64,000 nucleotides of DNA from Escherichia phage FFH2: sequence record KJ190158; one strand, given 5' to 3'. Of the stretch, positions 19,645-40,731 are shown piece after piece (positions within the stretch are counted from its first letter, which is position 1; the number at the start of each line of letters is the position of its first letter). A program made the translations under genes and the position numbers. Under the pieces are notes generated by a model. That model searched no databases, was not told where the DNA came from, and saw nothing but the letters and a program-made list of their open reading frames with translations.

Positions 19645-19875
19645 GACCGCACCTAAAACTGTTTATACTGTTCTTAAAGAGATTGCGTTCTACGCAGATC
19701 TTAGCCAGGCACCTTTATGGGAAAAGAGCATGTATTTAAAATGGTGCGTTAATTTAGGGAGACCTTCCAGTGTTTCAAGCCATGTTTATTGAGATGCTAT
19801 CTGGGGTATTGTTACTGGTAGCCATCTTAGGTGGTGCAGTTCTGATGTATAACTATCTTGAAAAAGGAGACAGCA

Positions 19876-20061
19876 ATGGCAAAAAATAAATCTTTAGAGC
19901 AGGCTGAAAACCTTCTCCACGAGCTGGTAAAGGAGTGGAAAGTTGAATACTCAGATTTTAATGCACGAGAGGGTGAAGATTATTGGCCTACGGAGCGCTC
20001 AGAGGGCGAATGGTATCAAGATTTTATAGAGTGGTTATATCAGACGTGCGATGAGGGGTGA
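19876..20061 (+). CDS. hypothetical acidic protein
   Basis: ATG 19876 is preceded by AAAGGAGA. Confidence 0.5.
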   Translation: MAKNKSLEQAENLLHELVKEWKVEYSDFNAREGEDYWPTERSEGEWYQDFIEWLYQTCDEG

Positions 20062-20063
20062 CG

Positions 20064-20519
20064 ATGTTTGTTAAATATGTAAAAACGTGCCTCAACAGTC
20101 TTGGCAGAGAGCATTGGTACACCTTACTTGAAAAAGGAGAAATTTTAACAAAATCTGGAAAGATAACTTTGATACCCTTGGACGATAAAGACCCGTCACT
20201 CCTTGTCATAGATGATTACGTTACAGGTGTGTCGTACGAGGTCTCTGTGGAGAGGTTAATACGCAGAGCTGGCGGCCCTTGTGATCAAAGAGAGTATGTT
20301 TTCGATTCCGTTACAGAGAGGGATCATCCGTCTTTAATGTTCAGGATGGTAATCAGGGATATGAGGTCATCTATAGATAGGATCGTAAAGGACATTAAGG
20401 AACCTTTTAGGGTAAAAGTTAAGAAGTTTTTTGATTCTAAGATTAACATACTTGCTGTTGTGCTAGGCGTAATTCAACTTCTGTTAATTTTGCACTATTT
20501 TGAACTGTTGTTTAAGTAG
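20064..20519 (+). CDS. hypothetical protein with C-terminal TM helix
   Basis: ATG 20064 is preceded by GAGGGG. The C terminus is hydrophobic (ILAVVLGVIQLLLILHYF). Confidence 0.55.
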   Translation: MFVKYVKTCLNSLGREHWYTLLEKGEILTKSGKITLIPLDDKDPSLLVIDDYVTGVSYEVSVERLIRRAGGPCDQREYVFDSVTERDHPSLMFRMVIRDMRSSIDRIVKDIKEPFRVKVKKFFDSKINILAVVLGVIQLLLILHYFELLFK

Positions 20520-20579
20520 TGTGCAACAAGGCACAAAGGATGTGCCATAATTAAACAAATTAAGAAAGAGGTAGAGAGA

Positions 20580-20927
20580 ATGTCAAAGATTAAATCGATA
20601 TTAATGTGGGTAGCTGTTGTGGCTTTTGTAGGATACTGGACTTGGGAAACTGAATTAAAAGATATCGGATATACCAGTCTTGAGAGCAAGGCATGCATTG
20701 GCATAACCGATGCATTCAGGCAAAATGCTATGGATCACGAATGTGTCGATGCAGATATAGATGAGAAACTGTCTAAGGACAAGGATTTTTACCATGGTCA
20801 TGCCTTGCTTGATAGTGGTGACACTGTAGAATTCTGGTCGTGGTTCCGTGAAGATGGAACAATAAAGACAGCAGTAAAGATTTCCAACAAAGAGTTAATG
20901 CTGTTGCAGCAGAAGGAGGTGCAATGA
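20580..20927 (+). CDS. hypothetical protein with N-terminal signal-anchor
   Basis: The N-terminal ILMWVAVVAFVGYW is hydrophobic. AGAGGTAGAGAG SD. Confidence 0.55.
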   Translation: MSKIKSILMWVAVVAFVGYWTWETELKDIGYTSLESKACIGITDAFRQNAMDHECVDADIDEKLSKDKDFYHGHALLDSGDTVEFWSWFREDGTIKTAVKISNKELMLLQQKEVQ

Positions 20928-21211
20928 TTTGGATATCCTACACTGATGGCACCATGCTGTATACTGCAGGTACTAGGTATGAAGTTCAGGAGGACGATAA
21001 AAAATTTATCGTAAAAACATTTGACAAGGACGACAACCTTTTGTTAGAATTGACTTACAAGGTTGGGGAGGTATCTAGCATCCAATTGGATTGCGGTCAT
21101 AAAGATAACCCGCTCAAGAAACCTGGGGTAGGTAAAGCTTCAGAAGAACGCCTGTCTCGTATTGCAGAAAGCGTTTCTGCACAAAAATCTAAGAAGAGGA
21201 TTAGAAAATGA
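20924..21211 (+). CDS. hypothetical protein
   Basis: The start overlaps the upstream stop. GGAGG SD. Confidence 0.55.
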   Translation: MIWISYTDGTMLYTAGTRYEVQEDDKKFIVKTFDKDDNLLLELTYKVGEVSSIQLDCGHKDNPLKKPGVGKASEERLSRIAESVSAQKSKKRIRK

Positions 21212-21408
21212 GTGACAAAATTCTTAAATTTAATACCTACTATGAGAATGATTTGAACGATCTGTATTATATAGTGCGTAGCGAAAACCCAAATGTAGTA
21301 CTGTTTTGCCGAGAACCTTTCAAAAAAGAGGAGATTGAATCTACCATGGATGTGGATCAGATTTCACACCTGCTGCTCCTTGGATCATTAAAAGAGGCAG
21401 TATTCTAA
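21208..21408 (+). CDS. hypothetical protein
   Basis: The start overlaps the upstream stop (ATGA). Confidence 0.5.
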   Translation: MSDKILKFNTYYENDLNDLYYIVRSENPNVVLFCREPFKKEEIESTMDVDQISHLLLLGSLKEAVF

Positions 21409-21427
21409 ACCAGGATGGAGGGTTTTT

Positions 21428-21613
21428 ATGAAGCACTATTGTCTGTCTGGTAGAATGGGTGCAGATTGTGATTGGGTTTTCTTAAAACTTGTCAGCATTC
21501 GAGAGTCCATTTCAGAGGAAGAGCAAGAAAGTGAGCTAATGTCCTGGATCAACCATTACGGTAACACTTTTCGGCATGTTAAGGTAGAAGAGTTGCCAAG
21601 TGAGGCTGATTGA
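21428..21613 (+). CDS. hypothetical protein
   Basis: 61-aa ORF with a GGATGGAGGG SD. Confidence 0.5.
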   Translation: MKHYCLSGRMGADCDWVFLKLVSIRESISEEEQESELMSWINHYGNTFRHVKVEELPSEAD

Positions 21614-21615
21614 CT

Positions 21616-21705
21616 ATGATTGCATCAATATTAACGTTTATGGGTGGCGTGGCATTCGGATTCATTGTTTGCCTGTTTATAGTGATTATGTCTATGCGAG
21701 GCTGA
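21616..21705 (+). CDS. hydrophobic micro-protein (29 aa)
   Basis: MIASILTFMGGVAFGFIVCLFIVIMSMRG exactly fills the gap between neighbours. Below the ORF-track cutoff. Confidence 0.4.
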   Translation: MIASILTFMGGVAFGFIVCLFIVIMSMRG

Positions 21706-21708
21706 ATT

Positions 21709-22005
21709 ATGAAACTTTTTGAGTGGTTTAAAAAGTTTAAATATAAAGCTGTAGCCATCGTGCCGTGGTCCATTCAGTGGGTTGATGAAGGTGGTCTACC
21801 AATACCTGGTGACAAAGATACTGGGTACTGGATTATGATGGAGAACGGGTTTGGAAAGCGAAAGTATACGTGCACAAACTCTACTCGATCTGCGCTTAAT
21901 AGAGTGCCTGGTTACAAACTTATGGTTGTGTGGAAAATGTCAGGCGTGCCTCCAGCTAATGCTCAATTTCTTACTGACAATCCGACCACGGTAGAGGAAG
22001 ATTGA
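21709..22005 (+). CDS. hypothetical protein
   Basis: 98-aa ORF in the co-oriented array. Confidence 0.55.
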   Translation: MKLFEWFKKFKYKAVAIVPWSIQWVDEGGLPIPGDKDTGYWIMMENGFGKRKYTCTNSTRSALNRVPGYKLMVVWKMSGVPPANAQFLTDNPTTVEED

Positions 22006-22007
22006 TA

Positions 22008-22289
22008 ATGAAAAAGATTAACAGTGGTGAAGTTGAGTTTAAACTTGTCGGGAAAGGCACTTACTGGGAAGTTCGTCAAAAGGTATATTTGTTCGGTCTT
22101 ATTCCCTATTGGTCTAAATTCTACTGGGGAGCTAACGAGTGGGGAAGATACGCCACCAAATCAATGGCACTTATTGGTATAGCAGAGTACATTGCAGCCA
22201 GAGATAGGGTTGGAGACACTTATTACTATACTGCGGACGATATTCGTAACAGTGTTTACGTCCCACAACCACCTGATGGAGACCGTTGA
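22008..22289 (+). CDS. hypothetical protein
   Basis: ATG 22008. The stop overlaps the next start. Confidence 0.55.
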   Translation: MKKINSGEVEFKLVGKGTYWEVRQKVYLFGLIPYWSKFYWGANEWGRYATKSMALIGIAEYIAARDRVGDTYYYTADDIRNSVYVPQPPDGDR

Positions 22290-22513
22290 TGAAAGTTAAA
22301 GTTTTAGATTCAAGCTTCTATATTGGTCAGGAGCCTTTAGTAGGAAAAGTGTTTACTGCTGTCCCTAACGAAGATTACCCTGACCTTTTAAAAATAAAAG
22401 GAGCAGATCTTATTGCCGCTGGTGCATCTCAGGAATGCTTTGACAGTCAGTGGACCTACAACTTTGCCCTAGGTGAGGATGTAGAGGTAGTGGAGGACGA
22501 TCATGAAGGTTAA
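22289..22513 (+). CDS. small paralogue family A member
   Basis: MKVKVLDSSFYIGQEPLVGKV...KGADLIAAGAS...GEDVEVVED. Confidence 0.65.
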   Translation: MKVKVLDSSFYIGQEPLVGKVFTAVPNEDYPDLLKIKGADLIAAGASQECFDSQWTYNFALGEDVEVVEDDHEG

Positions 22514-22757
22514 AATTCTTGATTCTAACGTCTACTTGGGACAATCCTTCCTGAATGGAAAGGTCGTTCCTGCGGTATACTTTGAAGGGTTGCCGTGGGA
22601 TGATCCTGTGCGGCAACATCACAGTTATGTAGGCCACAACGTGGTGTTTATCTTGGGATCAGACCTGATCACCGCTGGTGCACCTGAATATTATTTCGGG
22701 GAAGAGTCCTACTATGCCTTTGGGGTAGGGTCAGATGCAGATATTGTAGAGCTGTGA
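22503..22757 (+). CDS. small paralogue family A member
   Basis: MKVKILDSNVYLGQSFLNGKV...GSDLITAGAP...GVGSDADIVEL. Confidence 0.65.
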   Translation: MKVKILDSNVYLGQSFLNGKVVPAVYFEGLPWDDPVRQHHSYVGHNVVFILGSDLITAGAPEYYFGEESYYAFGVGSDADIVEL

Positions 22758-22769
22758 TGGGTAACCGTT

Positions 22770-23168: not shown

Positions 23169-23185
23169 AACAGTGAGGTGTCACC

Positions 23186-23476: not shown

Positions 23477-23482
23477 AAACTG

Positions 23483-23511
23483 TTGACACAACGCTTCAGA
23501 TTTAGTATCAT
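23483..23511 (+). promoter_or_regulatory. sigma70-type promoter in front of the HPF-like gene
   Basis: TTGACA-17 nt-TATCAT, followed by an AGAGGG-tttggtt-CCCTCT hairpin (23521-23539) and an AAGGA SD. Confidence 0.65.
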
Positions 23512-23876: not shown

Positions 23877-23885
23877 GGTGCTACA

Positions 23886-23987
23886 ATGGGCGTGATTAAG
23901 AAACTAGTCCCAAATGTAGAGATTGCATGCTTTGAAATTATGTTTGCAATCGCAGTTGTAGTTAATGTGTTAGGTTACGGCTATTAA
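23886..23987 (+). CDS. hydrophobic micro-protein (33 aa)
   Basis: MGVIKKLVPNVEIACFEIMFAIAVVVNVLGYGY with a GAGGTG SD. Below the ORF-track cutoff. Confidence 0.4.
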   Translation: MGVIKKLVPNVEIACFEIMFAIAVVVNVLGYGY

Positions 23988-26387: not shown

Positions 26388-26674
26388 TGAAAGATCTGGT
26401 TAAGATTAAGATTAAAGATACCAATGGAGAACTCAGTCATTTTGGAATTAATGATGGTGACGAGCTGATCGCACACCTGCCTACCAAGGAGGTTGTAAGC
26501 AAAGCAGTTGCCGGAGAAGAAGCTGCAATGCAGGCTGCAGGTGTGGATGAAAACTATGTAGCTATGTGCATGTGCCGAGATCAGGTTGTTCTGTATAAAG
26601 CGTATCGACCAAACGGAGCCACGGAGTGGCTTGTATTCCGACCCGAAGGATATGAAATCTTAGAGGCACTATGA
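26387..26674 (+). CDS. small paralogue family A-related protein
   Basis: MKDLVKIKIKD...VVLYKAYRPNGATEWLVFRPEGYEILEAL. Confidence 0.55.
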   Translation: MKDLVKIKIKDTNGELSHFGINDGDELIAHLPTKEVVSKAVAGEEAAMQAAGVDENYVAMCMCRDQVVLYKAYRPNGATEWLVFRPEGYEILEAL

Positions 26675-26754
26675 TAAATCTTGCCAAGGTTGCAACGGCA
26701 CTGTTAATTATTTGCTGGTCAGTAACCTTAACACTGTGTCTTGTATTTCAGTGA
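26671..26754 (+). CDS. hydrophobic micro-protein (27 aa)
   Basis: MINLAKVATALLIICWSVTLTLCLVFQ. The start overlaps the upstream stop (ATGA). Below the ORF-track cutoff. Confidence 0.35.
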   Translation: MINLAKVATALLIICWSVTLTLCLVFQ

Positions 26755-26763: not shown

Positions 26764-27027
26764 ATGAACATCCTGATGTGGGTTATAGCAGTGGCGTTTG
26801 TTGCATGTTTTTGCTGCTGGGTTGCGGTGAGGATTTCTGTAGCTACCCTTCGGAAGTTGGGGTTCTCAGAATGGGATATTAATATCCTTTCTTTTCGCAA
26901 TGAAACAATCTCAGCCGCCCTGCTTTGTAAGAAATTTAAGTGGGAACCTTGTGAGGTCATGAGCTATCTAAGAACAGGCGATATCCCTGAAAGATTTAAA
27001 AAAGTTCTTGACGGCAAGGATAAATGA
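26764..27027 (+). CDS. small membrane protein
   Basis: The N-terminal ILMWVIAVAFVACFCCWVAV is hydrophobic. GTGAGGTG SD. Confidence 0.55.
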   Translation: MNILMWVIAVAFVACFCCWVAVRISVATLRKLGFSEWDINILSFRNETISAALLCKKFKWEPCEVMSYLRTGDIPERFKKVLDGKDK

Positions 27028-27055
27028 CAGTATAGTGACTAACAAGAGGTGAGGG

Positions 27056-27196
27056 GTGACTGATTTTACTGAAGCTTTAATGATGGCCTTGTCTGTTTTA
27101 GCGCTATCGGTGTGTTTTGGGGCGTTATTCACATCTCTGGTTAAAGTTTTACATACAGTATTATTACCCAAGGAGCGCAGTAATGACGAAGATTGA
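27056..27196 (+). CDS. hydrophobic micro-protein (~46 aa, GTG start)
   Basis: GAGGTGAGGG sits upstream of the GTG. ALMMALSVLALSVCFGALFTSLV is a TM-like segment. The ORF overlaps the next start. Confidence 0.3.
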   Translation: MTDFTEALMMALSVLALSVCFGALFTSLVKVLHTVLLPKERSNDED

Positions 27197-28515: not shown

Positions 28516-28738
28516 ATCTGGTGCACGATTGCATACCTTGGGTAGTTAATCTCATTACAGAGCGTTTAAGAGCTCCCTACAAACAACTCCATATTTCGAG
28601 CGTAGCGAGAACGCACGTCCGTTTTGACCCAAATCACCATACGCTCGGATTTTAACCAAACCCTCGCGGCGTTTCTGTGGACACATTACCGATCCAGTGA
28701 TAGTATCCACACATAGTTTGTAGAATATGGAGTACACA

Positions 28739-28828
28739 ATGAGAACATTGTCCGAAGTTTTAGTGGTGATCCTGATGATCATTACGTCCATAGCGGCTGT
28801 TGCCGGAATACTCACGGGTGGAACATGA
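28739..28828 (+). CDS. hydrophobic micro-protein (29 aa)
   Basis: MRTLSEVLVVILMIITSIAAVAGILTGGT. The stop overlaps the next start (ATGA). Below the ORF-track cutoff. Confidence 0.4.
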   Translation: MRTLSEVLVVILMIITSIAAVAGILTGGT

Positions 28829-29037
28829 TCAACACACATGCATCTGAAGAGACATCCGAAGGAGTTACCATCTGTCCCTTGGCTGAGCCAGTGAAAGAGG
28901 AAAACTTCGATTCTGAAGATTATCCATCTCCGTCCCAGGTAGATCCTGAGGCTGATGACCTAACGTGGGAAGACATCGTAGATATCTGGTTCTCTATTAT
29001 GCCTGAGCACGAAGAGTTCAGGGGTGGTAGACTATGA
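28825..29037 (+). CDS. hypothetical very acidic protein (70 aa)
   Basis: Rich in D and E (EENFDSEDYPSPSQVDPEADDLTWEDIVD). Confidence 0.5.
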   Translation: MINTHASEETSEGVTICPLAEPVKEENFDSEDYPSPSQVDPEADDLTWEDIVDIWFSIMPEHEEFRGGRL

Positions 29038-29156
29038 AGCACCGAGCCCACACAGGTTCCTCATACTAAAGCATGGCCTGAAGAGGCAAACGTGCATAAT
29101 TCCTGCGCATTTGGACGTATAATCCTGTTCACACTCTCATTTCCAGAGGAGATTTT

Positions 29157-29372: not shown

Positions 29373-29499
29373 CACACAATTAGCTGCCCGGCTAAAGTGC
29401 TGGAAGCACCTATAACACATCTTTCAACTAAATTTCCTACCACCACAATCACTTACCTCCCACACATGACTGTTTGCTTGTTTAGTGAGCAGTCATGCC

Positions 29500-29527
29500 T
29501 TGACATTCTTGCCTATCCTGATAAAAT
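29500..29527 (+). promoter_or_regulatory. sigma70-like promoter firing into the ORF-free region
   Basis: TTGACA-16 nt-TAAAAT, just after a CATGACTG...CAGTCATG hairpin (29465-29497). There is no ORF downstream for about 2.3 kb. Confidence 0.5.
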
Positions 29528-30842
29528 TAAGTTCTTCTCTTTTCTTTTACCGAGTAATTCGGGTTTTCTGTTCTCTTCGGTTTGAAGGGGTATAGAGATA
29601 CACCTGAGTGAACAGGGTGAACAACCGAACATTTGGCTATGGCATTAGCATGGCGAAGCGGACGGGTGACGAAAGAGGGGCCGGAGGACACCAGTCACTG
29701 CCATATGATATATGGGTGATAACCTGAAGAGTCTGAATAAGTGTTTAAGTACCAGTCAGAGGAAAAGGTGAATGGTAGCCGAAGGGGGAGGGGGGTTTCT
29801 TGTATCTTTAATTTGTATATTATGTATACACTTGTAAACCAATCTCATCTGAATTTGTTTACCACACAAAGTGGATAGGGACAAATATTACCTATTAAAC
29901 TTGAATTATTTATAGAAATACCACAACACCACTTAAGTCTTTGATTTTACACACAAATCCTACAGATATTCACCCTCCATATTTAACATACCTGTAACAT
30001 ATTCCATACCCTACCTGACCGATCAATTCACCCAACTACATCCCCATATTTTCCCTGTCTGTACTACCCCTGCCCCGCCGGGAGTCCCGTCATATCTGGC
30101 TTTCCAGCAAATATCACACCCACAAATATCATTGCCTGAAGAGGGTTTCATCCCATAATACATGCCTTACCTGAAGAGCGCTTCATACACCACGTAAATT
30201 TTTTAATTGACCCCCTCCCCGCCGCCGGAGAGGTTGGCTTTTCCCACACAGACCTGAAGAGTCAGCCAGAAATATCTGAACAGGTCCAGCTATGCCACGA
30301 TTTTGTGCTTGTCCTACAGGAGTGCCTCCCTGTCAGGAGCCGGTAGCGACTGGAGTGCTGCCAGGCGGACGAAATGGGAATCATTCTCATTCTTATAACA
30401 ATTCTCAAATATCGAGGCAGTGAGGCAAATTAATAGGTGAGGCCGTTCACACAATGGCACAACATTTGCAACCTATCTTGTGGGAGTGAATGAGAATACC
30501 TATCATTGTGAGAATAGTTATCATTACGGGCAATTTAACATAATACCCATTATGCGCACCACTGGCGATCCATACAGGGATTGATAACATGGGTTACTGT
30601 TTACACACATAACAATTATATTTCTTACTATTTGTGTGGGATATAGTTAGCAGCCGATAGATTAGATATTGACCTGTAGACTTCCAACCGTCCAGACGTC
30701 TAAACGCCCACACAACAAGGGTTATACATACACAACTGAATGTAAACAGGGCCGCAAAAATGCTACCATACAAGCTTGTAAATTTTTCATGCAGCACTTG
30801 ACAAAGAGGAGGAAAACTTGTCTGACACTTTAGACACAATAG

Positions 30843-31168
30843 TGACATAATATGACATAATGGTGACACTGAACATAATTGACATGCCTGACTGTTTACA
30901 TAGCTAACTATTCATACAGAAATGATAAGCCATGCCATTCGTTTGCATGATAATAATTAACTTGTTTACAATAGATGACATAATATAAAAGCAGGGCAAC
31001 TATTAGAAGATCTATAGTTGCCTTGCTTGTTATGTCATGATTAACTAAATACAAGGCAACTATGATCTGATTAATAGTTTGCAGACAAACTATCACGGGG
31101 GTGATGGTTACTGCTTTTATATTATGTCGCGACTCCGTCGCGCCATGCCATTCGTTTGCATAGTTGCC
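30843..31168. repeat. cluster of three short repeat families (TGACATAAT, GGCAACTAT half-sites, 20-mer GCCATGCCATTCGTTTGCAT)
   Basis: TGACATAAT at 30843, 30853 and 30976, plus inverted near-copies at 31029 and 31121. GGCAACTAT/ATAGTTGCC at 30995, 31014, 31055, 31074, 31086 and 31160. The 20-mer at 30929-30948 and 31142-31161. Confidence 0.8.
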
Positions 31169-31778
31169 TTATTGTTACAGATAAAATAATTGTATTGTTA
31201 ATTATTTCTTATCTTTCTCTTAGTCATCTAATGATTCCAGTCAGTATAGTAATGTACAGTAAACATTAGACGACTAAAGATTTCTCTGTTTATTATAACT
31301 TACCGTGACAATTTCAGGCTGTTTACGAAAAATGTTGACACCTGGGCCGATTTATGTTATGCAGTTTACACGAATAATTATTTTATGCAGGTATTGACTA
31401 TTCCGTTATTCTATGGTTGGAATAAATACTTAGCAGACTATAGAATGGTGAGCGTACGTAAATTCTGAGATCTGGCGGCTATAGTTATACTCGATTTTTC
31501 ACGTAGAACACGCTTTTGTTAGTGTGTAAGTGTATGACTTATAAAGATTTTTAGTTGTTGACAAGATATTGAAGATGTGCATCAGGTTAAATTTTGTGCA
31601 ATAGCGGCATTACGTGCAATTTTGAGAGAGAAAACGGGTAAAAATGGCCTTGCTATCACACAATGAAAAATTATGCAATAGTTATTTTACATGTATGTTT
31701 GTACAGTGTGTGGGATTGATGGCTAGTCAATTATTCCACTTGCCAGGCTGGGCCGTTTGTGGTAGGAGAAATACAGAC

Positions 31779-31806
31779 AAAAAGAAAGGGGCCTTTTAAA
31801 GCCCCT
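31779..31806 (-). terminator. rho-independent terminator ending the minus-strand small-gene block
   Basis: Minus strand: GGGGC-tttaaaag-GCCCC followed by TTTCTTTTT. Confidence 0.75.
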
Positions 31807-33402: not shown

Positions 33403-33537
33403 TTAAAACAAGGTGCCAACCGTTTCCAATAGATCACTGACTACCAGGACAATACTGATCAGCACATACCTAACCATAAGGGGAAAGAGCGCCAGCGATC
33501 CCGCCACAATCCCCAAGGTGATGATTATCTTTCTCAT
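33403..33537 (-). CDS. hydrophobic micro-protein (44 aa)
   Basis: MRKIIITLGIVAGSLALFPLMVRYVLISIVLVVSDLLETVGTLF exactly fills the gap between neighbours. Below the ORF-track cutoff. Confidence 0.45.
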   Translation of the reverse strand: MRKIIITLGIVAGSLALFPLMVRYVLISIVLVVSDLLETVGTLF

Positions 33538-33539
33538 GG

Positions 33540-33824
33540 TTAACGGTTTACGTAAGCTTTACCGTTTACGGTGATGGGCAGATCTTCCAGGTCTGGATCT
33601 TCCTTAAGGTCGCGAGCAAGCTCACCGCACCGGATACCCTCGAATCCGTAGTACTCTGTCGTGCCGTCCTGGAAAGTTTTAGCGGCAAGGCATAAGCGAT
33701 AAGTAACCCCGATTTGATTGACGGCATGAATATCCGTTAGATTAACCTCTTTTGCCAGCTCTTTAGCCATTACAGGCGCATTAAGTCCAACAACCAGGGC
33801 AACCACTGCGATCATCTTTTTCAT
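33540..33824 (-). CDS. secreted/periplasmic small protein
   Basis: The N-terminal MKKMIAVVALVVGLNAPVMA looks like a Sec signal peptide with an AxA-type cleavage site. Confidence 0.6.
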   Translation of the reverse strand: MKKMIAVVALVVGLNAPVMAKELAKEVNLTDIHAVNQIGVTYRLCLAAKTFQDGTTEYYGFEGIRCGELARDLKEDPDLEDLPITVNGKAYVNR

Positions 33825-34140: not shown

Positions 34141-34245
34141 TCACCCGATACCGTTGGAAGACAAGATCACATTAGCCATGGTTGCAATCAGGCCAATACC
34201 TAAGGCAATAACCAGGATCACAGCATCAATTAATTTTTGTTTCAT
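34141..34245 (-). CDS. hydrophobic micro-protein (34 aa)
   Basis: MKQKLIDAVILVIALGIGLIATMANVILSSNGIG with an AGAAGAGAATAAA SD after a GGGGCCG...CGGCCCC hairpin. Confidence 0.4.
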   Translation of the reverse strand: MKQKLIDAVILVIALGIGLIATMANVILSSNGIG

Positions 34246-34659: not shown

Positions 34660-34839
34660 TTAACGATAATCATCATATGCTTTATTGACCTGGCGAATAT
34701 AACATTCAAAAGCTAGATCAATAGATTTATATTCACGGATATATTCACCGTAGGAAACCACATACATTTCTATAGCTTCCTCATATGCGAGTAGAATAGA
34801 ATCTAAGCCTACGATCTCAGTCTTTGCAATAATAGCCAT
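34660..34839 (-). CDS. hypothetical protein (59 aa)
   Basis: MAIIAKTEIVGLDSILLAYEEAIEMYVVSYGEYIREYKSIDLAFECYIRQVNKAYDDYR with an AAAGAGGATAAAA SD. A TTGACA-16-TAATAT promoter and a GGGGC...GCCCC hairpin lie upstream. One residue under the ORF-track cutoff. Confidence 0.55.
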   Translation of the reverse strand: MAIIAKTEIVGLDSILLAYEEAIEMYVVSYGEYIREYKSIDLAFECYIRQVNKAYDDYR

Positions 34840-36450: not shown

Positions 36451-36651
36451 TTACAGGCCTACAATCTCTTTGATTCGTTTAACCGCCGCCTCAGCGCCTT
36501 GGGGGTAAAAATTATGGTAACCAATCACGCGAGTGATACTAATCGCCGTTTGATGATCTTCATAGTCGCCCTTGAAGATTTCTTGACCGTCAATCAGCAC
36601 GGCAATTTTTTCTTCTTTTTTGAAGTTAATAACGCGGATATTGTTGCTCAT
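36451..36651 (-). CDS. hypothetical protein
   Basis: 66-aa ORF with an AAAGGAGAAA SD after a GGGGAaacaTCCCC hairpin. A TTGCAA-17-ATAATA promoter lies upstream. Confidence 0.55.
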   Translation of the reverse strand: MSNNIRVINFKKEEKIAVLIDGQEIFKGDYEDHQTAISITRVIGYHNFYPQGAEAAVKRIKEIVGL

Positions 36652-36893
36652 TTTTGTTTCTCCTTTCTGGTTTTTGTGTTGGTGGGGATGTTTCCCCGTT
36701 GATTGTTATTATCCATATTGCGGACCAGATTGCAACACCCTGGAAGAAAAATTTTTTGAAAAAGTTAAGCCCCCATGATCGGGGGCGTTATCAGTTACTT
36801 ATAGCAATAAAGTACATTCCTACCCCTAACAATATTTCAAGGGCGATGATCTCAAGCCATACCATAACACGGCGCACCTTATCAGCGCATGGC

Positions 36894-37019
36894 TTATCCT
36901 TGGTTGTCATCGTCTCCCCCTTCCCTCCTGTTAGTAGTGACGTGGTTTACAATGGCCCCCAGGAGTCCTATCACCACGCACACCACAAGAAAAATTATCT
37001 CCGCTGTTGTTCGATCCAT
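36894..37019 (-). CDS. hydrophobic micro-protein (41 aa)
   Basis: MDRTTAEIIFLVVCVVIGLLGAIVNHVTTNRREGGDDDNQG with GAGGA 11 nt upstream. It overlaps the 3' end of 36931-37152 in another frame. Confidence 0.4.
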   Translation of the reverse strand: MDRTTAEIIFLVVCVVIGLLGAIVNHVTTNRREGGDDDNQG

Positions 37020-37152
37020 TGTTATAAAATTCCTCAAGATCAGGCCTGAAAATAAAGCGTTCGTTATTGAATCCGTCACGCCAGGCGGCTGGCTTCAAAT
37101 CTTCACTAAAGGGATTAATTAACGTGACGTTATTTAAACGGCTGGTCCACAT
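36931..37152 (-). CDS. hypothetical protein (3' part doubtful)
   Basis: ATG 37152 is preceded by GAGAGGAATAGAAAAT. The last ~29 codons overlap a better-looking TM ORF and read as low-complexity sequence. Confidence 0.4.
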   Translation of the reverse strand: MWTSRLNNVTLINPFSEDLKPAAWRDGFNNERFIFRPDLEEFYNNGSNNSGDNFSCGVRGDRTPGGHCKPRHY

Positions 37153-37501
37153 ATTTTCTATTCCTCTCAAATAGGCGATCCGCCTCAGTTAAACATATCT
37201 CATGGGCTTGGTCTCTGGTTTTAGCCTCATCAAAAACCTGTTGTGCCAGGCTGCAGCGTAGGGAGACTGGAAGATCACTATAATAGGCGTTGACAAACGT
37301 TTGTGCGTCATACAGGTCGGAAAACACTTTACCCTTTCTATTATCGCCCTTGTCAACAATTGCAAGGATAACCAATACAATAGTTGCAACCACTCCCAGG
37401 AAAATAGATATAACAAACCATAGAAAAGCGGATCTACCTATCTTGCCAGCGATCCAGGCGTTGAACAAGGCAACTACTACAGCCAAAATAATAAATTCCA
37501 T
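37130..37501 (-). CDS. membrane protein (2 TM helices plus soluble C-terminal domain)
   Basis: The start is set at the internal ATG 37501 (AAAGAGGTACATAGA upstream, after a GGCGGC...GCCGCC hairpin). MEFIILAVVVALFNAWIAGKIGRSAFLWFVISIFLGVVATIVLVILAIV. Confidence 0.6.
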   Translation of the reverse strand: MEFIILAVVVALFNAWIAGKIGRSAFLWFVISIFLGVVATIVLVILAIVDKGDNRKGKVFSDLYDAQTFVNAYYSDLPVSLRCSLAQQVFDEAKTRDQAHEICLTEADRLFERNRKYVDQPFK

Positions 37502-37565
37502 TCTATGTACCTCTTTTGCAGTTCTGTTTAACAATAAGGCGGCAAATATGCCGCCTGTTACCTGA

Positions 37566-37946
37566 TTAAAAATTATCGCCGTAAATCTTTCCGCTTTCTG
37601 CCCACACCACCACGCGGGGCATGTTATCCCATACATCTTGTTTCAGATTTAACGCGTGCAATTCTTCGGTGGTGCTCATACCAGGCACGGGCTGATTGTA
37701 TACTGCAAAACGACCACCTGCATAATCATAGGCCAGGGTTAAATCACACTGAATCATCTTTTTGATCATGGCGTTGAGCATAGCGTTAGCCGCATACTGG
37801 TCACGTTTTAAAGGCAACTCTTTGATTAGTTTGCGATAGTTTTCAATGTGATCGCACACTGTTTCACGTGGAAGATCTTTCATATCCTCGCGAAAGGTAA
37901 CCAGGTTAAACATAACGGTGTCAATAGCTTTAGTAGTGTTTTTCAT
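37566..37946 (-). CDS. hypothetical protein
   Basis: 126-aa ORF. Upstream are a TTGCAA-17-TATATT promoter, a GGGGGCAAGACGTTTGCCCC hairpin and an AAAGAGGAAAA SD. Confidence 0.6.
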   Translation of the reverse strand: MKNTTKAIDTVMFNLVTFREDMKDLPRETVCDHIENYRKLIKELPLKRDQYAANAMLNAMIKKMIQCDLTLAYDYAGGRFAVYNQPVPGMSTTEELHALNLKQDVWDNMPRVVVWAESGKIYGDNF

Positions 37947-38035
37947 AATGTTTTCCTCTTTGTTTTGTGTGGGGCAAACGTCTTGCCCCCTTGAGTTTTA
38001 ATATAGCAGGTTTTTAGATTATTGCAACACTTTAT

Positions 38036-38659
38036 TTATGAAAAACTCATCTCTCCATATTCATCTACATCAAACCGCCAATCATTGGCCTCAATAAGGC
38101 CGATCAGGTTTTCGGTAGTGAACTGCTCTAGATAGGCCTCCTCCAGGTCTACGTAAACCTTGCGGGATAGCTCCCGTACCGTCTCGGTGATCAGCTCTTC
38201 CAGGTCTTCCACTTTGTTTTCTTGTTTGGCGGTCAGATCTAGCCAGGTGGTATCAATGTATCCGCTTACAGTGTTTTCATGGCTGTAATGGCTGTACTTG
38301 TCGCGTTCAATACTGGCTGATAACTCGCCATCGTGCATTGTGCCGAACAAGTGACGAATTGATCGGAACTTGGTCAGGGCCTTTACTTTACGCAAGAATT
38401 TTTCTAAATCCACGTTTTCAGCACTGATTGACGCGCCGTCACCCTGGCACCAAAAGCCGGACCAATGTACATCGGTATCTTCAAGGCCGTACTCTGGAAA
38501 AACTTGTTCTTTATAATATTCAATTACACTTTCTGCGAAAAAATCCTCTCCGCTGTGTTCTTCTCTTTCGCGGACCATTTCAATAGCTTTTTCTTTTTGT
38601 TCGTCGGTCAGCACGTCGAAAGATAAATTGCAACCTGTGGTAATGTTAACGGTGGTCAT
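38036..38659 (-). CDS. hypothetical acidic protein (207 aa)
   Basis: Contains HWSGFWCQGDGASI and YSHYSHENTV motifs. It has its own promoter, hairpin and SD. Function unknown. Confidence 0.6.
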   Translation of the reverse strand: MTTVNITTGCNLSFDVLTDEQKEKAIEMVREREEHSGEDFFAESVIEYYKEQVFPEYGLEDTDVHWSGFWCQGDGASISAENVDLEKFLRKVKALTKFRSIRHLFGTMHDGELSASIERDKYSHYSHENTVSGYIDTTWLDLTAKQENKVEDLEELITETVRELSRKVYVDLEEAYLEQFTTENLIGLIEANDWRFDVDEYGEMSFS

Positions 38660-38716
38660 GATATTTTCTCCTGTTTTCTTTGTTAGTGGCGGGAAGTTTT
38701 CCCGCCTGTGTGTTTA

Positions 38717-38744
38717 ATTATACTTATTGAGATTTACTTGTCAA
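38717..38744 (-). promoter_or_regulatory. sigma70-type promoter
   Basis: Minus strand: TTGACA-16 nt-TATAAT, followed 10 nt later by the hairpin GGCGGGAAaactTTCCCGCC (38688-38706). Confidence 0.7.
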
Positions 38745-38994
38745 CACTATTTTTTAAATTATTGTGGCGCAAAATGTTTAAAATCTCTTCAACGTCATCA
38801 ACACGGCGGCAATTTTTAAACGCTACCAATTGCCCCATGATTTTAATCACTGGGCGGCCTTGCCAGTGCCCCTGGAGAAAGCGCGCCTTGACTTTATCGG
38901 TGGGACTATCACGCCACCAAATGGCCTTGTTATTGCAGTAGTAAAAATTATTCAGGACAATATCAACTTTATCAAAATTTTTTAATTTACGCAT
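38734..38994 (-). CDS. hypothetical protein
   Basis: 86-aa ORF with an AAGGAAGGAG SD and a TTGACA-17-TATACT promoter upstream. Confidence 0.55.
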   Translation of the reverse strand: MRKLKNFDKVDIVLNNFYYCNNKAIWWRDSPTDKVKARFLQGHWQGRPVIKIMGQLVAFKNCRRVDDVEEILNILRHNNLKNSVDK

Positions 38995-39204
38995 AGTGTT
39001 TACTCCTTCCTTCTTGCTTTGATGTGGTTAGTATATCCGGACTATTCCAAGGTGTCAAGCTTTAAATAAAATCACTGTCAATGATATTTTTAACACCATA
39101 AAACGGCCCTAGGCGATGTTTTCAGGTTAATAAAGGGGATTGCATAGGTAGGGGCTTTTGTGGCGTTTGTGGGGCCAACCAGGGGCGCTATTCGTAGGAT
39201 AGAA

Positions 39205-39231
39205 ATAAAAAGCCCCGCACAATGGCGGGGC
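39205..39231 (-). terminator. rho-independent terminator
   Basis: Minus strand: GCCCCGC-cattgt-GCGGGGC followed by TTTTTATTT. Confidence 0.75.
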
Positions 39232-39239
39232 GTTGGTTG

Positions 39240-39437
39240 CTATTTGTCTTTGTGGCGGTATCGTTCCGCCTGTCGTTCACGTTCCAAAAGCAGGCCCGGT
39301 AATTTGCGATCATAGTGATTTCTCCAGATCTTCCCGAACCTTTTCGGTTTATTCAGTTTATTGTTACGCTGGCGGCGTTCCGGCAGCTCTTCGGAATCGT
39401 GGGGGCGCTTTACAATTTTTTCGAAATTAATTTTCAT
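39240..39437 (-). CDS. small basic protein (65 aa)
   Basis: ATG 39437 is preceded by AAAGGGGG. Rich in Arg and Lys. Confidence 0.5.
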   Translation of the reverse strand: MKINFEKIVKRPHDSEELPERRQRNNKLNKPKRFGKIWRNHYDRKLPGLLLERERQAERYRHKDK

Positions 39438-39798
39438 AAACGCCCCCTTTACTGATCTCAATATTTGCCTGAATCGCCCGGATACGACGTTTTATAGTCT
39501 CCTGATCCTTGCAATCATATCCCCAAAAGTCTACGATTTTTGCGCCGCCAGCCTTTAAGCGGTATAATGTTTCTTGCATCTTGTAAGCTGGGATCGGTCT
39601 CGGTGTTACCTGGTCCCCTTTCCCATCCTTGTACTTGATAATGTAGTCTTCGTTGTCGTTGAATACCCAAAATGGGTATTCTGTAAGCGCGTTGCTCTCT
39701 TTTTCGTTTTTGGATTGGATCTTGTTTACAATTAAAGCCGTAGCAATAGCGCCAATAATAAAACTTGCCCCGCTGATCATGTTACTTTCTCCTTTCAT
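39427..39798 (-). CDS. membrane-anchored protein
   Basis: The N-terminal ISGASFIIGAIATALIV looks like a TM anchor, followed by a soluble domain. Confidence 0.55.
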   Translation of the reverse strand: MKGESNMISGASFIIGAIATALIVNKIQSKNEKESNALTEYPFWVFNDNEDYIIKYKDGKGDQVTPRPIPAYKMQETLYRLKAGGAKIVDFWGYDCKDQETIKRRIRAIQANIEISKGGVYEN

Positions 39799-39856
39799 TG
39801 TGCTGATAAACTATCTTTATAGATGGCCCTGCCACCAGGACCACCGAAAAAACAGT

Positions 39857-40102
39857 TTATTTGACGATACCGACAAAACAGATCCCGCCTTCCCCTATAT
39901 AGGCAATATCGGTAATTTTATAATTTGTCAAGATCCGCGTGTTCAGATCATTAATAAAATCGGTCATCGCGTTGGTGTAGTTGTCTTCCGTGTCTAAGGC
40001 ATAATCCCAGGTGTAAACCTTTTTACGTCCGAAGCCTTTTACCATGATACGGGCGCTTTTGGTGTTGGTAGGGGCATAATATTTGGTAATTAGTGCGGCC
40101 AT
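39857..40102 (-). CDS. hypothetical protein
   Basis: 81-aa ORF with a TAGAGGAG SD, downstream of promoter cassette copy 2. Confidence 0.55.
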   Translation of the reverse strand: MAALITKYYAPTNTKSARIMVKGFGRKKVYTWDYALDTEDNYTNAMTDFINDLNTRILTNYKITDIAYIGEGGICFVGIVK

Positions 40103-40145
40103 TGTTTTAACTCCTCTATATTAGTTCAGTGTTAACAGTGTAAAG

Positions 40146-40192
40146 TTTACTTTATTGATGGCCCTGGAGTCAAGGCCATCTAAAAATAAATT
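40146..40192 (-). promoter_or_regulatory. 47-bp promoter cassette, copy 2
   Basis: Minus strand: AAATTTATTTTTA-GATGGCC-TTGACTCCA-GGGCCATC-AATAAAG-TAAACT. Confidence 0.7.
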
Positions 40193-40533
40193 TACTCGTT
40201 TTCTTCCAGTTCTGCAAGCTCTTCTTTCACTTCTTCAAGCTCTGTCTGTAATTCTTGGTATTCTTCATCGTCCTCAATATCCAGGCTGTCGATGTAGTCG
40301 CTAAATCCGCAGCGGTAAGCGATAGGATCTAGCTCCTTGAGGATACGCGACGGAAGAAAAGAAATGTTTCCGATCATAATTTCGCCGTAGATCTCGTCTA
40401 ACCATTCATCATAGTTTTCGTCGTACTTGTCCTCGTCGATTTCAAAGTTATCGATCTTATTCTCAAGGTCTGCGATCTGTTTTTTCAGCGCGGCGATCTG
40501 CATGGCTTTTTCTGCGGCGGTCATAGTAGTCAT
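40192..40533 (-). CDS. highly acidic coiled-coil protein (113 aa)
   Basis: About one third of residues are D or E (IDEDKYDENYDEWLDE..., DIEDDEEYQELQTELEEVKEELAELEENE). It has its own TTGACA-16-TATACT promoter and hairpin. Confidence 0.6.
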   Translation of the reverse strand: MTTMTAAEKAMQIAALKKQIADLENKIDNFEIDEDKYDENYDEWLDEIYGEIMIGNISFLPSRILKELDPIAYRCGFSDYIDSLDIEDDEEYQELQTELEEVKEELAELEENE

Positions 40534-40611
40534 GGTGTTTTCTCCTTTTGTGTGTTCTGGGAAGTTTTCCCGTTTATGTGTTTAGTATACTGATCTAAGT
40601 TAGCTTGTCAA

Positions 40612-40731
40612 TTAAAAGTTTAAGAAAAATTTTGCGATACCGTTGGCGCTACCCATCAACATTTGCGCCAGGATGTAACCAATGATGCAAACGATAATAG
40701 TTACCTTTGTGTGCTGGCGTGTAGTACTCAT
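40612..40731 (-). CDS. hydrophobic micro-protein (39 aa)
   Basis: MSTTRQHTKVTIIVCIIGYILAQMLMGSANGIAKFFLNF with an AAAGGAGG SD, downstream of promoter cassette copy 3. Confidence 0.45.
   Translation of the reverse strand: MSTTRQHTKVTIIVCIIGYILAQMLMGSANGIAKFFLNF

What the first reader, a model, noticed from the sequence alone, without database searches (positions are those of the whole stretch)
19783..40731. At least a dozen unannotated hydrophobic micro-ORFs (24-46 aa) fill otherwise unexplained gaps
All are below the 60-aa ORF-track cutoff. Each fills an intergenic gap exactly, usually has an SD or an ATGA/TGATG overlap with a neighbour, and encodes one predicted TM helix.

- Plus strand: 21616-21705, 23886-23987, 26671-26754, 27056-27196, 28739-28828, and possibly 19783-19890.
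- Minus strand: 33403-33537, 34141-34245, 36894-37019, 40612-40731, and possibly 36791-36865.

Small membrane peptides in phages act as holin or antiholin modulators, superinfection-exclusion factors or inhibitors of membrane transporters. Their number here is striking.
Basis: seen in the sequence. Interest (0 to 1): 0.5.

Follow-up and report, generated by a model that had tools for sequence, protein, structure and literature searches.

The report
Small membrane-protein genes of an rV5-like phage
The eleven tiny hydrophobic reading frames are real, conserved genes for one-helix membrane peptides in the early-gene region of an rV5-like E. coli phage, but most were already annotated (seven as "membrane protein, 1 TMD" in 2013) and what they do is still unknown.

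Summary
The window is a Vequintavirus (rV5-like E. coli myovirus, about 95% identical to rV5). All 11 listed micro-ORFs exist, with two corrections: p1 is off by one base (real ORF 19770/19782-19889), and "m5" is the 3' part of a 39-aa ORF (36791-36910).

Against 15 relatives the frames stay open. Pooled omega is 0.30, against 0.85-0.96 for control small ORFs and 0.15 for larger genes. Most have an SD or a stop/start overlap. m1 and m2 have orthologs in another phage subfamily. p3, p4 and m3 are kept in frame in about 116 phage genomes each.

They are not "unannotated". Seven are listed as "membrane protein, 1 TMD" in the 2013 rV5 paper, and eight match PHROG families of unknown function. Only p4 (84 nt) appears never to have been called. 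m3 has been called in one phage record.

New details:
- m3 is overprinted on the unconstrained C-terminal tail of the upstream gene.
- p2 is a 96-bp cassette bounded by a duplicated SD/stop/start junction, absent from some relatives and shared with E. coli prophages.
- Every supported gene under 50 aa in this block is a predicted single-TM protein.

No family, structure or experiment indicates a function. The result is solid but largely known, so interest is low to moderate.

The parts
19770..19889 (+). p1: 39-aa single-TM micro-gene (MFQAMFIEMLSGVLLLVAILGGAVLMYNYLEKGDSNGKK; GTG start here, alternative ATG at 19782)
   Evidence: S/N 21/4, omega 0.05, intact in 14/14 relatives. SD GGGAGA. phrog_15251 over 39/39 positions. 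rV5 ORF131 'membrane protein 1 TMD'.
21616..21705 (+). p2: 29-aa single-TM micro-gene, part of a 96-bp presence/absence cassette (21610-21705) bounded by the direct repeat (G)(T/C)GAGGCTGA at 21600-21609 and 21696-21705
   Evidence: Exact empty site in L005/L018/L020. ORF kept in E. coli prophage copies at 77-89% nt identity with the same junction repeat. Annotated in AlexBoehm.
23886..23987 (+). p3: 33-aa single-TM micro-gene directly after the HPF/RaiA-like gene
   Evidence: ORF open in 14/14 relatives, with the core EIACFEIMFAIAVVVNVLGYGY nearly invariant (unchanged even in the most divergent relative). In frame in 116 phage records. phrog_15151. rV5 ORF145. dN/dS not discriminating (6/12).
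26671..26754 (+). p4: 27-aa single-TM micro-gene, ATGA-overlapped with the upstream gene; not found annotated in any record examined
   Evidence: The ~85%-identity relative keeps a syntenic 26-27-aa hydrophobic ORF (42% aa identity over 24 aligned residues) with a TGATG overlap. Full-length in frame in 116 phage records. Exact peptide absent from the 15-billion-protein collection. No PHROG.
27056..27196 (+). p5: 46-aa single-TM micro-gene with an acidic C-terminal tail (GTG here, ATG in most relatives)
   Evidence: S/N 18/12, omega 0.20, 13/14 intact. SD GAGGTGAGGG. Sigma70-like promoter at 27008-27036 just upstream. phrog_16755. rV5 ORF156.
28739..28828 (+). p6: 29-aa single-TM micro-gene, ATGA-overlapped with the downstream gene
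   Evidence: S/N 20/12, omega 0.23. 77% aa ortholog in the divergent relative. phrog_34195 over 29/29 positions. Annotated in Murica and AlexBoehm. Not annotated in rV5, whose ORF162 (306 nt) spans this stretch; by my coordinate mapping ORF162 is the downstream gene's frame extended upstream over p6.
33403..33537 (-). m1: 44-aa hydrophobic micro-gene, coupled to the upstream gene (ATG 2 nt after its TAA); accessory
   Evidence: S/N 30/38, omega 0.45, p=1e-3. Two C-terminal alleles; absent from four relatives (L005, L006, L018, L020), three of which (L006, L018, L020) show only a 25-nt spacer in its place. 73% aa ortholog in a Phapecoctavirus. phrog_16005. rV5 ORF170.
34141..34245 (-). m2: 34-aa single-TM micro-gene
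   Evidence: S/N 14/9, omega 0.21, 10/10 intact. 56% aa orthologs of the same length in Phapecoctavirus and Justusliebigvirus. phrog_14631. rV5 ORF173.
36894..37019 (-). m3: 41-aa single-TM micro-gene overprinted on the 3' tail of the upstream ORF
   Evidence: Third-position variation switches to the m3 frame at 37019 ([6,8,14] in the overlap). In the overlap, S/N is 14/17 in the m3 frame and 7/25 in the other frame. ORF open in 14/15 relatives and in 117 phage records. Called in only one phage record.
36931..37152 (-). Upstream gene (73 aa here, 81 aa in most relatives; phrog_12060), whose last ~30 codons overlap m3 and look unconstrained
   Evidence: Frame-specific S/N 17/22 upstream of 37020 and 7/25 in the overlap. 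The tail varies in length and sequence and is Gly/Asn/Arg/Asp-rich. PHROG match.
   Evidence: S/N 19/13, omega 0.18, 15/15 intact. SD GGAGGG. phrog_13629 over 39/39 positions. rV5 ORF181 'membrane protein 1 TMD'. Terminator-like hairpin at 36786-36769.
40612..40731 (-). m4: 39-aa single-TM micro-gene
   Evidence: S/N 20/18, omega 0.24, 13/13 intact. SD AAGGAGG 6 nt upstream. 70% aa ortholog in the divergent relative. phrog_16391. rV5 ORF193.

Best explanation
The eleven ORFs are genuine, separately translated genes for very small (27-46 aa) single-pass inner-membrane proteins. There is no evidence that they form one family. They lie in the block of 'mainly small ORFs' of a Vequintavirus, a block dotted with host sigma-70-type promoters.

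Shown:
- The frames are conserved under purifying selection that acts on the peptide sequence.
- They carry ribosome-binding or translational-coupling signals.
- Each has a hydrophobic core long enough to span a membrane.
- Several (p2, m1, m2) are accessory units that come and go between related phages.

Inferred:
- They are made early in infection.
- They insert into the E. coli inner membrane.
- They act the way other characterised microproteins of this size act, by binding and modulating larger membrane-embedded host or phage proteins. Possible roles are blocking entry of competing phages, altering transport or envelope enzymes, or tuning lysis timing. Each is probably individually dispensable but advantageous in some hosts.

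No specific target can be assigned to any of them.
For: - Identity of the genome.
- Frame integrity and peptide alignments in 15 relatives.
- The proposed frame gives the lowest omega of the three same-strand frames for 8 of 11 candidates. The only frame that rivals it is the antisense frame that shares third codon positions.
- Pooled omega is 0.30, against 0.85 and 0.96 in matched controls (Fisher p = 3e-19 and 1e-15).
- Orthologs persist at low nucleotide identity: 85% relative; another subfamily; prophages.
- p4, m3 and p3 are in frame in 116-117 phage records.
- SD or coupling signals.
- Strong sigma70-like promoters and terminators in the block: and rV5 paper PMC3606486.
- TMHMM/Phobius '1 TMD' calls for seven of them in rV5 Table S3.
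- Among about 50 small coding-strand gap ORFs, only the hydrophobic ones plus one 59-aa soluble gene combine a low omega with near-complete intactness.
- Only about 7 of 52 larger genes have a TM-like segment.
- Accessory behaviour.
Against: - There is no expression, localisation or phenotype data for any of them. The rV5 mass-spectrometry data cover virions only.
- TM status rests on hydropathy and on the published TMHMM/Phobius calls.
- dN/dS is not discriminating for p3 (6/12), p4 (12/23) and m3 (15/24) taken alone.
- No match to any characterised family or structure, so the 'modulator of membrane proteins' step is analogy only.
- Early timing is inferred from promoter-like consensus matches, not from transcript data.
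Confidence: 0.8

Rival explanations
1. The ORFs are translated only as coupling or spacer devices. They act as short relay ORFs that keep ribosomes on the polycistronic mRNA or set the expression of the next gene, and the peptide itself has no function.
For: Many are tightly coupled. p4 and p6 have ATGA overlaps, m1 starts 2 nt after a stop, and the 3' ends of p2, p4 and m2 contain the SD of the next gene.
Against: - Selection acts on the amino-acid sequence (pooled omega 0.30; p1 0.05; m5L 0.18).
- Hydrophobic character and length persist at 42-56% aa identity.
- p2 keeps its peptide in a different genomic context, in prophages.
- Relatives lacking p2 or m1 simply couple the flanking genes directly, so no relay is needed.
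Confidence: 0.06
2. Some of them are lysis-timing components (antiholins, pinholin-like partners or holin modulators). The best candidates are p1 (two genes after the 2-TMD 'putative holin' gp129), m3 and m5L (after a 123-aa multi-TM 'putative holin'), and p2.
For: - The rV5 paper proposes gp129 as the holin. gp129 corresponds by position and TM content to window 19420-19644.
- BASEL annotates the 123-aa protein (window 37133-37501) as a putative holin.
- The prophage copies of p2 sit one ORF downstream of holin-lysozyme-Rz.
Against: - Both 'holins' are PHROGs of unknown function with no Pfam support.
- The rV5 lysin gp89 lies about 22 kb away.
- The genes sit among sigma70-type promoters typical of early units.
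- No micro-peptide hits any holin or antiholin model.
Confidence: 0.12
3. They are toxin-like pore-forming or depolarising peptides (functionally like bacterial type I toxins such as TisB or Hok) that the phage uses for host shut-off.
For: Their size (27-46 aa), single hydrophobic helix and short polar ends resemble type I toxins. This is resemblance only, drawn from my own knowledge of those families.
Against: - No match to any type I toxin model in Pfam or NCBIfam.
- Eleven separate toxins in one early region would be redundant.
- Several are dispensable across relatives.
- Antisense regulators were not looked for.
Confidence: 0.1
4. For m3 only: it is not an independent gene but the C-terminal part of a +1 frameshift product. 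Ribosomes would slip on GAA-TTT-TAT just upstream, fusing the 42-aa N-domain of the upstream gene to the TM helix.
For: - Constraint switches from the upstream frame to the m3 frame within a few codons of 37019.
- A run of four T lies at the junction (context).
- The upstream gene has no stop near that point.
Against: - m3 has its own conserved ATG in all 15 relatives and a GAGGA SD 10-11 nt upstream.
- There is no stimulatory stop or rare codon at the putative slip site.
- Ordinary overlap is simpler.
Confidence: 0.05
5. The ORFs are chance open frames in hydrophobic-codon-rich spacers and are not genes.
For: About 8% of spurious small ORFs in this sequence pass the same hydrophobicity cut. 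p3, p4 and m3 lack a significant individual dN/dS signal.
Against: - Controls have omega 0.85-0.96 and are intact in a median of 28-57% of relatives.
- The candidates are intact in nearly all relatives, lie on the coding strand, carry SDs, and are conserved across subfamilies and in prophages.
Confidence: 0.03

Closest known systems
rV5 ORFs 131, 145, 156, 170, 173, 181, 193 ('membrane protein, 1 TMD'; Kropinski et al. 2013, PMC3606486) and PHROGs 15251, 15151, 16755, 34195, 16005, 14631, 13629, 16391
   Same: These are the same genes. The orthologs are 80-100% identical and have the same lengths and positions.
   Different: None for eight of them. p2 has only a weak hit to phrog_6302. p4 and m3 have no PHROG and are essentially absent from annotation. 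All these families are of unknown function.
Bacterial small inner-membrane regulators (AcrZ, MgrB, MgtS, SgrT, PmrR, KdpF, CydX)
   Same: They have the same size class (about 30-50 aa) and a single TM helix with short polar ends. The proposed mode of action, binding a larger membrane protein, is what I infer here (own knowledge of these families).
   Different: There is no sequence relationship, these are phage-encoded, and no partner is known.
Small phage membrane proteins that target host envelope functions: T4 Ac, T4 Imm, and the single-gene lysis peptides (phiX174 E, MS2 L, phage M LysM)
   Same: They are small, phage-encoded, TM-anchored proteins acting on host membrane machinery. T4 ac is cited as assumed to interact with AcrAB-TolC in PMC13250531. 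The rest is from my own knowledge.
   Different: There is no homology. The peptides here are shorter than most of these. The lysis peptides come from ssDNA and ssRNA phages that lack holin-endolysin systems.
Morons of temperate phages (extra genes inserted between conserved genes)
   Same: p2, and to a lesser extent m1, are discrete units present or absent at an otherwise conserved junction. p2 occurs in the classic lysis-to-terminase slot of an E. coli prophage.
   Different: Classical morons carry their own promoter and terminator. p2 is 96 bp, has neither, and relies on a duplicated SD/stop/start junction and translational coupling.
Enterobacterial intergenic smORF microproteins (Entero67K set, PMC11188072)
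   Same: [quoted passage not shown]
   Different: That set comes from bacterial chromosomes. Membership was not tested. The unannotated prophage copies of p2 might be included.

Membership tests
PHROG families 15251/15151/16755/34195/16005/14631/16391/13629 (rV5-type small proteins, unknown function) | Full-length HMM match | tested here: met
   E-values 4e-21 to 4e-36 over the whole profile for p1, p3, p5, p6, m1, m2, m4 and m5L. p2 has only a weak hit, and p4 and m3 have none.
Single-pass transmembrane microprotein (descriptive class) | One hydrophobic segment of about 19 residues or more, able to span a bilayer | tested here: met
   Kyte-Doolittle 19-residue maxima are 2.08-2.95 for all 11. 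Seven were called '1 TMD' by TMHMM/Phobius in rV5 Table S3. Actual membrane insertion was not tested.
Holins / antiholins | Match to a holin or antiholin family model | tested here: not met
   No Pfam or NCBIfam holin model matches any peptide. The neighbouring 'putative holins' have no Pfam hit either.
Holins / antiholins | Location in a lysis cassette next to the endolysin | tested here: not met
   rV5 lysin gp89 is at 71.5 kb in rV5, about 22 kb from this block. No lysozyme is annotated in the region in any relative. Exception: the prophage copies of p2 lie one ORF after holin-lysozyme-Rz.
Holins / antiholins | Effect on lysis timing | not testable with these tools
   Needs genetics.
Bacterial type I toxins (Hok, Ldr, TisB, Ibs, ShoB, DinQ, ZorO) | Match to a toxin family model | tested here: not met
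   No hits in Pfam or NCBIfam at E<=0.1 apart from sub-threshold matches on hydrophobic stretches.
Bacterial type I toxins (Hok, Ldr, TisB, Ibs, ShoB, DinQ, ZorO) | Cis- or trans-encoded antisense RNA antitoxin | not tested
   Not examined. No Rfam search was run over the ORFs themselves.
Superinfection-exclusion proteins (T4 Imm/Sp type) | Homology to Imm or Sp families | tested here: not met
   No Pfam hit.
Superinfection-exclusion proteins (T4 Imm/Sp type) | Exclusion phenotype | not testable with these tools
   Needs plaque or EOP assays on expressing cells.
Anti-phage defence system components | Match to a PADLOC model | tested here: not met
   No hits.
Morons | Presence/absence polymorphism at a conserved junction | tested here: met
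   p2 has an exact empty site in three relatives. m1 is replaced by a 25-nt spacer in three relatives. The other nine are present wherever the region aligns, apart from m2, which is missing or a divergent allele in some.
Morons | Own promoter and terminator | tested here: not met
   The 96-bp p2 cassette contains only SD, ORF and stop. Only a weak 10/12 promoter-like match overlaps its start, and there is no terminator.

The most novel reading that the evidence does not exclude
The early region of rV5-like phages may act as a nursery and exchange pool for minimal membrane-protein genes. Two observations point this way.

1. p2 may be a 96-bp 'plug-in' gene whose two ends duplicate the same SD/stop/start junction (GAGGCTGA..ATG). 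It could then be inserted into, or excised from, a translationally coupled operon by microhomology without disturbing its neighbours. It has moved between virulent Vequintaviruses and temperate E. coli prophages.

2. m3 may be a TM gene that coexists in an alternative frame with the unconstrained tail of the upstream gene, i.e. overprinting.

If so, this would describe a smaller and simpler unit of phage gene mobility than the classical moron.
Probability: 0.35. Interest if true: 0.5.

Novelty: already known. Interest (0 to 1): 0.25.

Why it matters
For annotation, the result is a clean, evidence-based list. Eleven micro-genes should be kept, including p4 and m3, which gene callers appear to miss. 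From my own knowledge of gene-caller settings, the likely reasons are size (84 nt) for p4 and overlap (89 nt or more) for m3. Several non-hydrophobic small ORFs annotated in relatives behave like noise.

For biology, in this phage block every supported gene under 50 aa is a membrane peptide, while only about one in seven larger genes is. That makes these peptides a defined, tractable set for asking what phages do to the host inner membrane early in infection: exclusion, transport, envelope synthesis or lysis timing. Vequintaviruses are used in phage-therapy cocktails and in the BASEL collection, so knock-outs and expression screens are feasible.

The p2 cassette gives a concrete example of how very small genes may spread between virulent and temperate phages.

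Tried and rejected
- IMG/VR scans anchored on two neighbouring genes gave only one full-length close relative plus two shorter contigs; the rest were distant, non-syntenic hits. GenBank records were used instead.
- Nucleotide projection mis-scored divergent orthologs as broken (p4, p6, m1 and m4 in L008/L010). I replaced it with tblastn and direct reading.
- The comparative scan flags many antisense ORFs, because the antisense frame shares third codon positions. These were discarded as artefacts.
- Paralogy among the 11 peptides: the best z is 5.5 (m2 vs m3) on hydrophobic sequences, which is not convincing.
- Junction duplication as a general feature was rejected. Only p2 shows it.
- Pfam, NCBIfam, PADLOC and PDB sequence searches gave nothing above threshold.
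- Pfam and PHROG searches on the neighbouring membrane proteins and both 'putative holins' returned only unknown function.
- Literature searches found no transcriptomic, Ribo-seq or functional data on these genes. Fremin et al. 2022 on phage small genes is not held.
- I did not use the search for homologous proteins, the representative-library search or structure prediction. For 27-46-aa single helices with PHROGs of unknown function, they were unlikely to change the verdict.

Full report
**What the window is.** A megablast of 19.5-41 kb finds 297 phage records. Full-length matches at 91-96% identity are all rV5-like E. coli myoviruses (genus Vequintavirus). The region corresponds to rV5 93.6-115.9 kb. 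[quoted passage not shown] In the window, genes run on the plus strand up to about 29.4 kb and on the minus strand from about 31.8 kb, converging on that gene-free stretch.

**Checking the observation.** Ten of the eleven ORFs translate cleanly at the stated coordinates, and each has a strongly hydrophobic core (19-residue Kyte-Doolittle maximum 2.08-2.95).
- p1 is mis-placed by one base. The ORF ends at 19889 and starts at GTG 19770 (39 aa, SD 7 nt upstream, ATG in phage FV3) or at ATG 19782.
- "m5" is the distal part of a 39-aa ORF, 36791-36910, which has a strong SD and is the form annotated in relatives and in phrog_13629.
- SD-like sequences precede p1, p2, p3, p4, p5, p6, m3, m5L and m4. 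p4 and p6 share ATGA overlaps with a neighbour. m1 starts 2 nt after the upstream stop. m2 has only a weak SD.
- "Fills the gap exactly" is true for seven. p1 and p5 overlap neighbours by 14-23 nt, and m3 lies inside the tail of the upstream ORF.

**Is it more than chance?** I projected 15 relatives (84-96% identical, including one ~85% IMG/VR genome) onto window coordinates. For every ORF of at least 20 aa in six frames, I counted synonymous and non-synonymous variable sites and checked frame integrity.
- Hydrophobic small ORFs do arise by chance: 12 of 151 small ORFs on the non-coding strand pass the same cut. Pooled, they have omega 0.96, and they are intact in a median of 28% of relatives.
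- The eleven candidates pool to S=180/N=167, omega 0.30. This compares with 0.85 for 38 non-hydrophobic small ORFs in coding-strand gaps (Fisher p=3e-19) and 0.15 for 49 accepted larger genes.
- The proposed frame is the best same-strand frame for p1, p2, p5, p6, m1, m2, m4 and m5.
- p1, p5, p6, m1, m2, m4 and m5L are individually significant.
- All are open in nearly all relatives. The apparent breaks are alignment artefacts at divergent alleles or single-base differences in records flagged UNVERIFIED.

**The weaker cases.**
- *p2* has few substitutions within the genus. However, the same 29-aa ORF, with the same start and stop, is kept in E. coli prophage copies that differ at up to 20 of 90 nt.
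- *p4* has omega 0.63. The ~85% relative, whose DNA here is only about 60% identical and has indels, still encodes a 26-27-aa hydrophobic peptide at the same place (42% aa identity) with the same stop/start overlap. The peptide is in frame in 116 phage records.
- *p3* has no discriminating dN/dS signal (6/12). Its core is nearly invariant, and it is in frame in 116 records.
- *m3* is treated below.

**Beyond the genus.** m1 (73% aa identity, in the Phapecoctavirus locus) and m2 (56%, in both loci) have same-length orthologs in Phapecoctavirus and Justusliebigvirus, which belong to a different subfamily.

**The size/TM contrast.** Among about 50 small coding-strand ORFs lying in gaps, the only ones that combine a low omega with near-complete intactness are the hydrophobic candidates and one 59-aa soluble gene (34660-34839). 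p3 and p4 are equally intact, but their omega does not discriminate. Several non-hydrophobic small ORFs that some relatives annotate (e.g. 28521-28655, 29024-29122) behave like noise. Only about 7 of 52 larger supported genes have a TM-like segment. Outside 19.2-41.2 kb the window has no coding-strand hydrophobic micro-ORF in a gap. So in this block, "under 50 aa and conserved" coincides with "single TM helix".

**Annotation status.** "Unannotated" does not hold.
- rV5 Table S3 (2013) lists ORFs 131, 145, 156, 170, 173, 181 and 193, which are p1, p3, p5, m1, m2, m5L and m4, as "membrane protein, 1 TMD" by TMHMM/Phobius.
- AlexBoehm (BASEL) annotates p1, p2, p3, p5, p6, m1, m2, m5L and m4. Murica annotates p6 at exactly 90 nt.
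- Eight peptides match full-length PHROG families, all of unknown function.
- Exact look-up shows p2, p6 and m5L in public protein sets. The rV5-type variant of m3 occurs in a single phage record (vB_EcoM_Gotham). The p4 peptide, in the form shared by most relatives here, is absent from about 15 billion proteins.
- From my own knowledge of gene callers, the likely reasons are these: p4 (84 nt with stop) is below the usual 90-nt minimum, and m3 overlaps a longer same-strand ORF by 89-113 nt, more than callers allow.

**m3.** Relatives annotate a 73-81-aa ORF (window 36931-37152, phrog_12060) that runs across m3 in another frame.
- Variable sites by codon position follow the upstream ORF's frame in 37020-37079 ([3,4,9]). 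They follow the m3 frame in 36931-37019 ([6,8,14]).
- In the overlap, S/N is 14/17 in the m3 frame and 7/25 in the other frame. Upstream of it, S/N is 10/29 and 17/22 respectively.
- The tail of the upstream protein varies in length (73 or 81 aa) and is Gly/Asn/Arg/Asp-rich. m3's changes are conservative hydrophobic swaps (V/M/A/I/G).
- m3 has a conserved ATG, a GAGGA SD, is open in 14/15 relatives and aligns in 117 phage records.

I read this as an independent TM gene overprinted on an unconstrained tail. The statistics are suggestive, not decisive. A +1 frameshift fusion is a low-probability alternative.

**p2.** Three relatives lack p2 and read ...GCCAAGCGAGGCTGA|ATTATGAAA.... Occupied genomes carry a 96-bp insert bounded by the direct repeat GCGAGGCTGA.
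- That repeat serves at once as the SD and spacer in front of p2, the last codons and stop of p2, and the SD in front of the next gene.
- The homology to E. coli chromosomes (10 of 5,426 genomes) covers exactly the cassette (window 21602-21711) and nothing else.
- In three chromosomes examined it sits in the same prophage type, directly after a 180-aa ORF downstream of holin-lysozyme-Rz and before the terminase genes. It is not annotated there, and it has the same duplicated junction, CGAGGCTGATTATG.
- m1 is also present or absent between relatives, but without such a repeat. The junction duplication is specific to p2.

**What they are and how they probably work.** The block carries many near-consensus sigma-70 promoters and intrinsic terminators. 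Examples are a promoter at 27008-27036 just before p5 and a terminator at 36786-36769 right after m5L. The rV5 authors likewise found host-type promoters throughout the genome. This fits early expression by host RNA polymerase, but it is an inference.

The peptides are not convincingly related to one another. They match nothing in Pfam, NCBIfam, PADLOC or PDB sequences. The two neighbouring "putative holins" have no homology support, and the lysin is about 22 kb away.

The best-supported reading is therefore descriptive: eleven real genes, not demonstrably related to one another, encoding single-pass inner-membrane microproteins, several of them accessory. By analogy with characterised proteins of this size, the most likely mode of action is binding and modulating a larger membrane protein of the host or the phage. 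The analogues are bacterial AcrZ, MgrB, MgtS and SgrT, phage T4 Ac and Imm, and the single-gene lysis peptides. These come from my own knowledge, except T4 ac, which is mentioned in PMC13250531. Which partner, and to what end, cannot be said from sequence.

Membrane-protein genes cluster locally, which hints that some may work with neighbours; this too is inference:
- the 74-aa 2-TM protein, p1, the 153-aa protein and the 115-aa protein at 19.4-20.9 kb;
- p4, an 87-aa TM protein and p5 at 26.7-27.2 kb;
- the 123-aa multi-TM protein, m3 and m5L at 36.8-37.5 kb;
- m1, directly after a 94-aa protein with a hydrophobic N-terminal segment that looks like a signal peptide (my reading of the sequence).

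**Novelty and score.** The existence and TM nature of most of these genes is published. The enrichment of hydrophobic, potentially TM peptides among conserved microproteins is also a known pattern (PMC11188072). New here are the comparative validation, two essentially unannotated members (p4 and m3, the latter overprinted), corrected boundaries for p1 and m5, the identification of likely spurious small ORFs in relatives, and the p2 micro-cassette shared with prophages. Overall the finding is correct but ordinary, with a couple of modestly interesting details.

Noticed in passing
window 29400-31800, especially 29500-29800 (+ strand): This is the gene-free convergent zone, which the rV5 paper also calls non-coding. 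Inside it, 29500-29800 is the most conserved stretch of the whole 19-41 kb region: 89-95% of columns are invariant across 15 relatives, including the ~85% one. It has no conserved ORF and starts at a near-consensus sigma70 promoter (29500-29527, TTGACA-16-TAAAAT with TG). There is no Rfam or tRNA hit. The fold of 29534-29800 is moderately more stable than shuffles (z = -2.8). It may be a phage non-coding RNA or a regulatory or replication element.
   Followed up: partly
window 28521-28655, 29024-29122 (+); also 36648-36716 and 19641-19739: These are non-hydrophobic small ORFs, and the first two appear to correspond to small CDSs annotated in some relatives (e.g. AlexBoehm's 135-nt and 99-nt CDSs). 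They show omega of about 0.6-1.3, and 29024-29122 is open in only 1 of 15 relatives. They are probably spurious annotations.
   Followed up: partly
window 19595-19792 (+), rV5 ORF130: The ORF annotated between the putative holin gp129 and p1 has weak coding support (S/N 25/49, omega 0.53), compared with its neighbours at 0.06-0.31. It may be mis-annotated or fast-evolving.
   Followed up: no
L024 6011-6100; L027 and L028 about 3511-3600 (E. coli chromosomes NZ_CP012379.1, NZ_CP053296.1, NC_017641.1): A conserved 29-aa TM micro-ORF homologous to p2 is left unannotated by PGAP in an E. coli prophage family. It lies between the lysis cassette and the terminase genes, near an Acb1-family (anti-CBASS) gene.
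   Followed up: yes
GenBank records MG0656xx (L019-L023, L025, L026): About two dozen records deposited as 'UNVERIFIED: Campylobacter phage' with host C. jejuni are 93-96% identical to E. coli rV5-like or phAPEC8-like phages. The host labels are probably wrong. Single-base indels in them (e.g. L021 in p5 and m3) look like sequencing errors.
   Followed up: no
window 33543-33824 (-): The 94-aa protein directly upstream of m1 starts with MKKMIAVVALVVGLNAPVMA|KE, which looks like a Sec signal peptide with an AxA-type cleavage site. It would be a secreted or periplasmic early protein paired with a TM micro-protein. It belongs to phrog_9845, unknown function.
   Followed up: no
window 38717-38744 and 39030-39058 (-): There is a perfect 12/12 sigma70 consensus promoter (TTGACA-16-TATAAT) and an 11/12 one in the minus-strand block, consistent with very strong early transcription units.
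   Followed up: no
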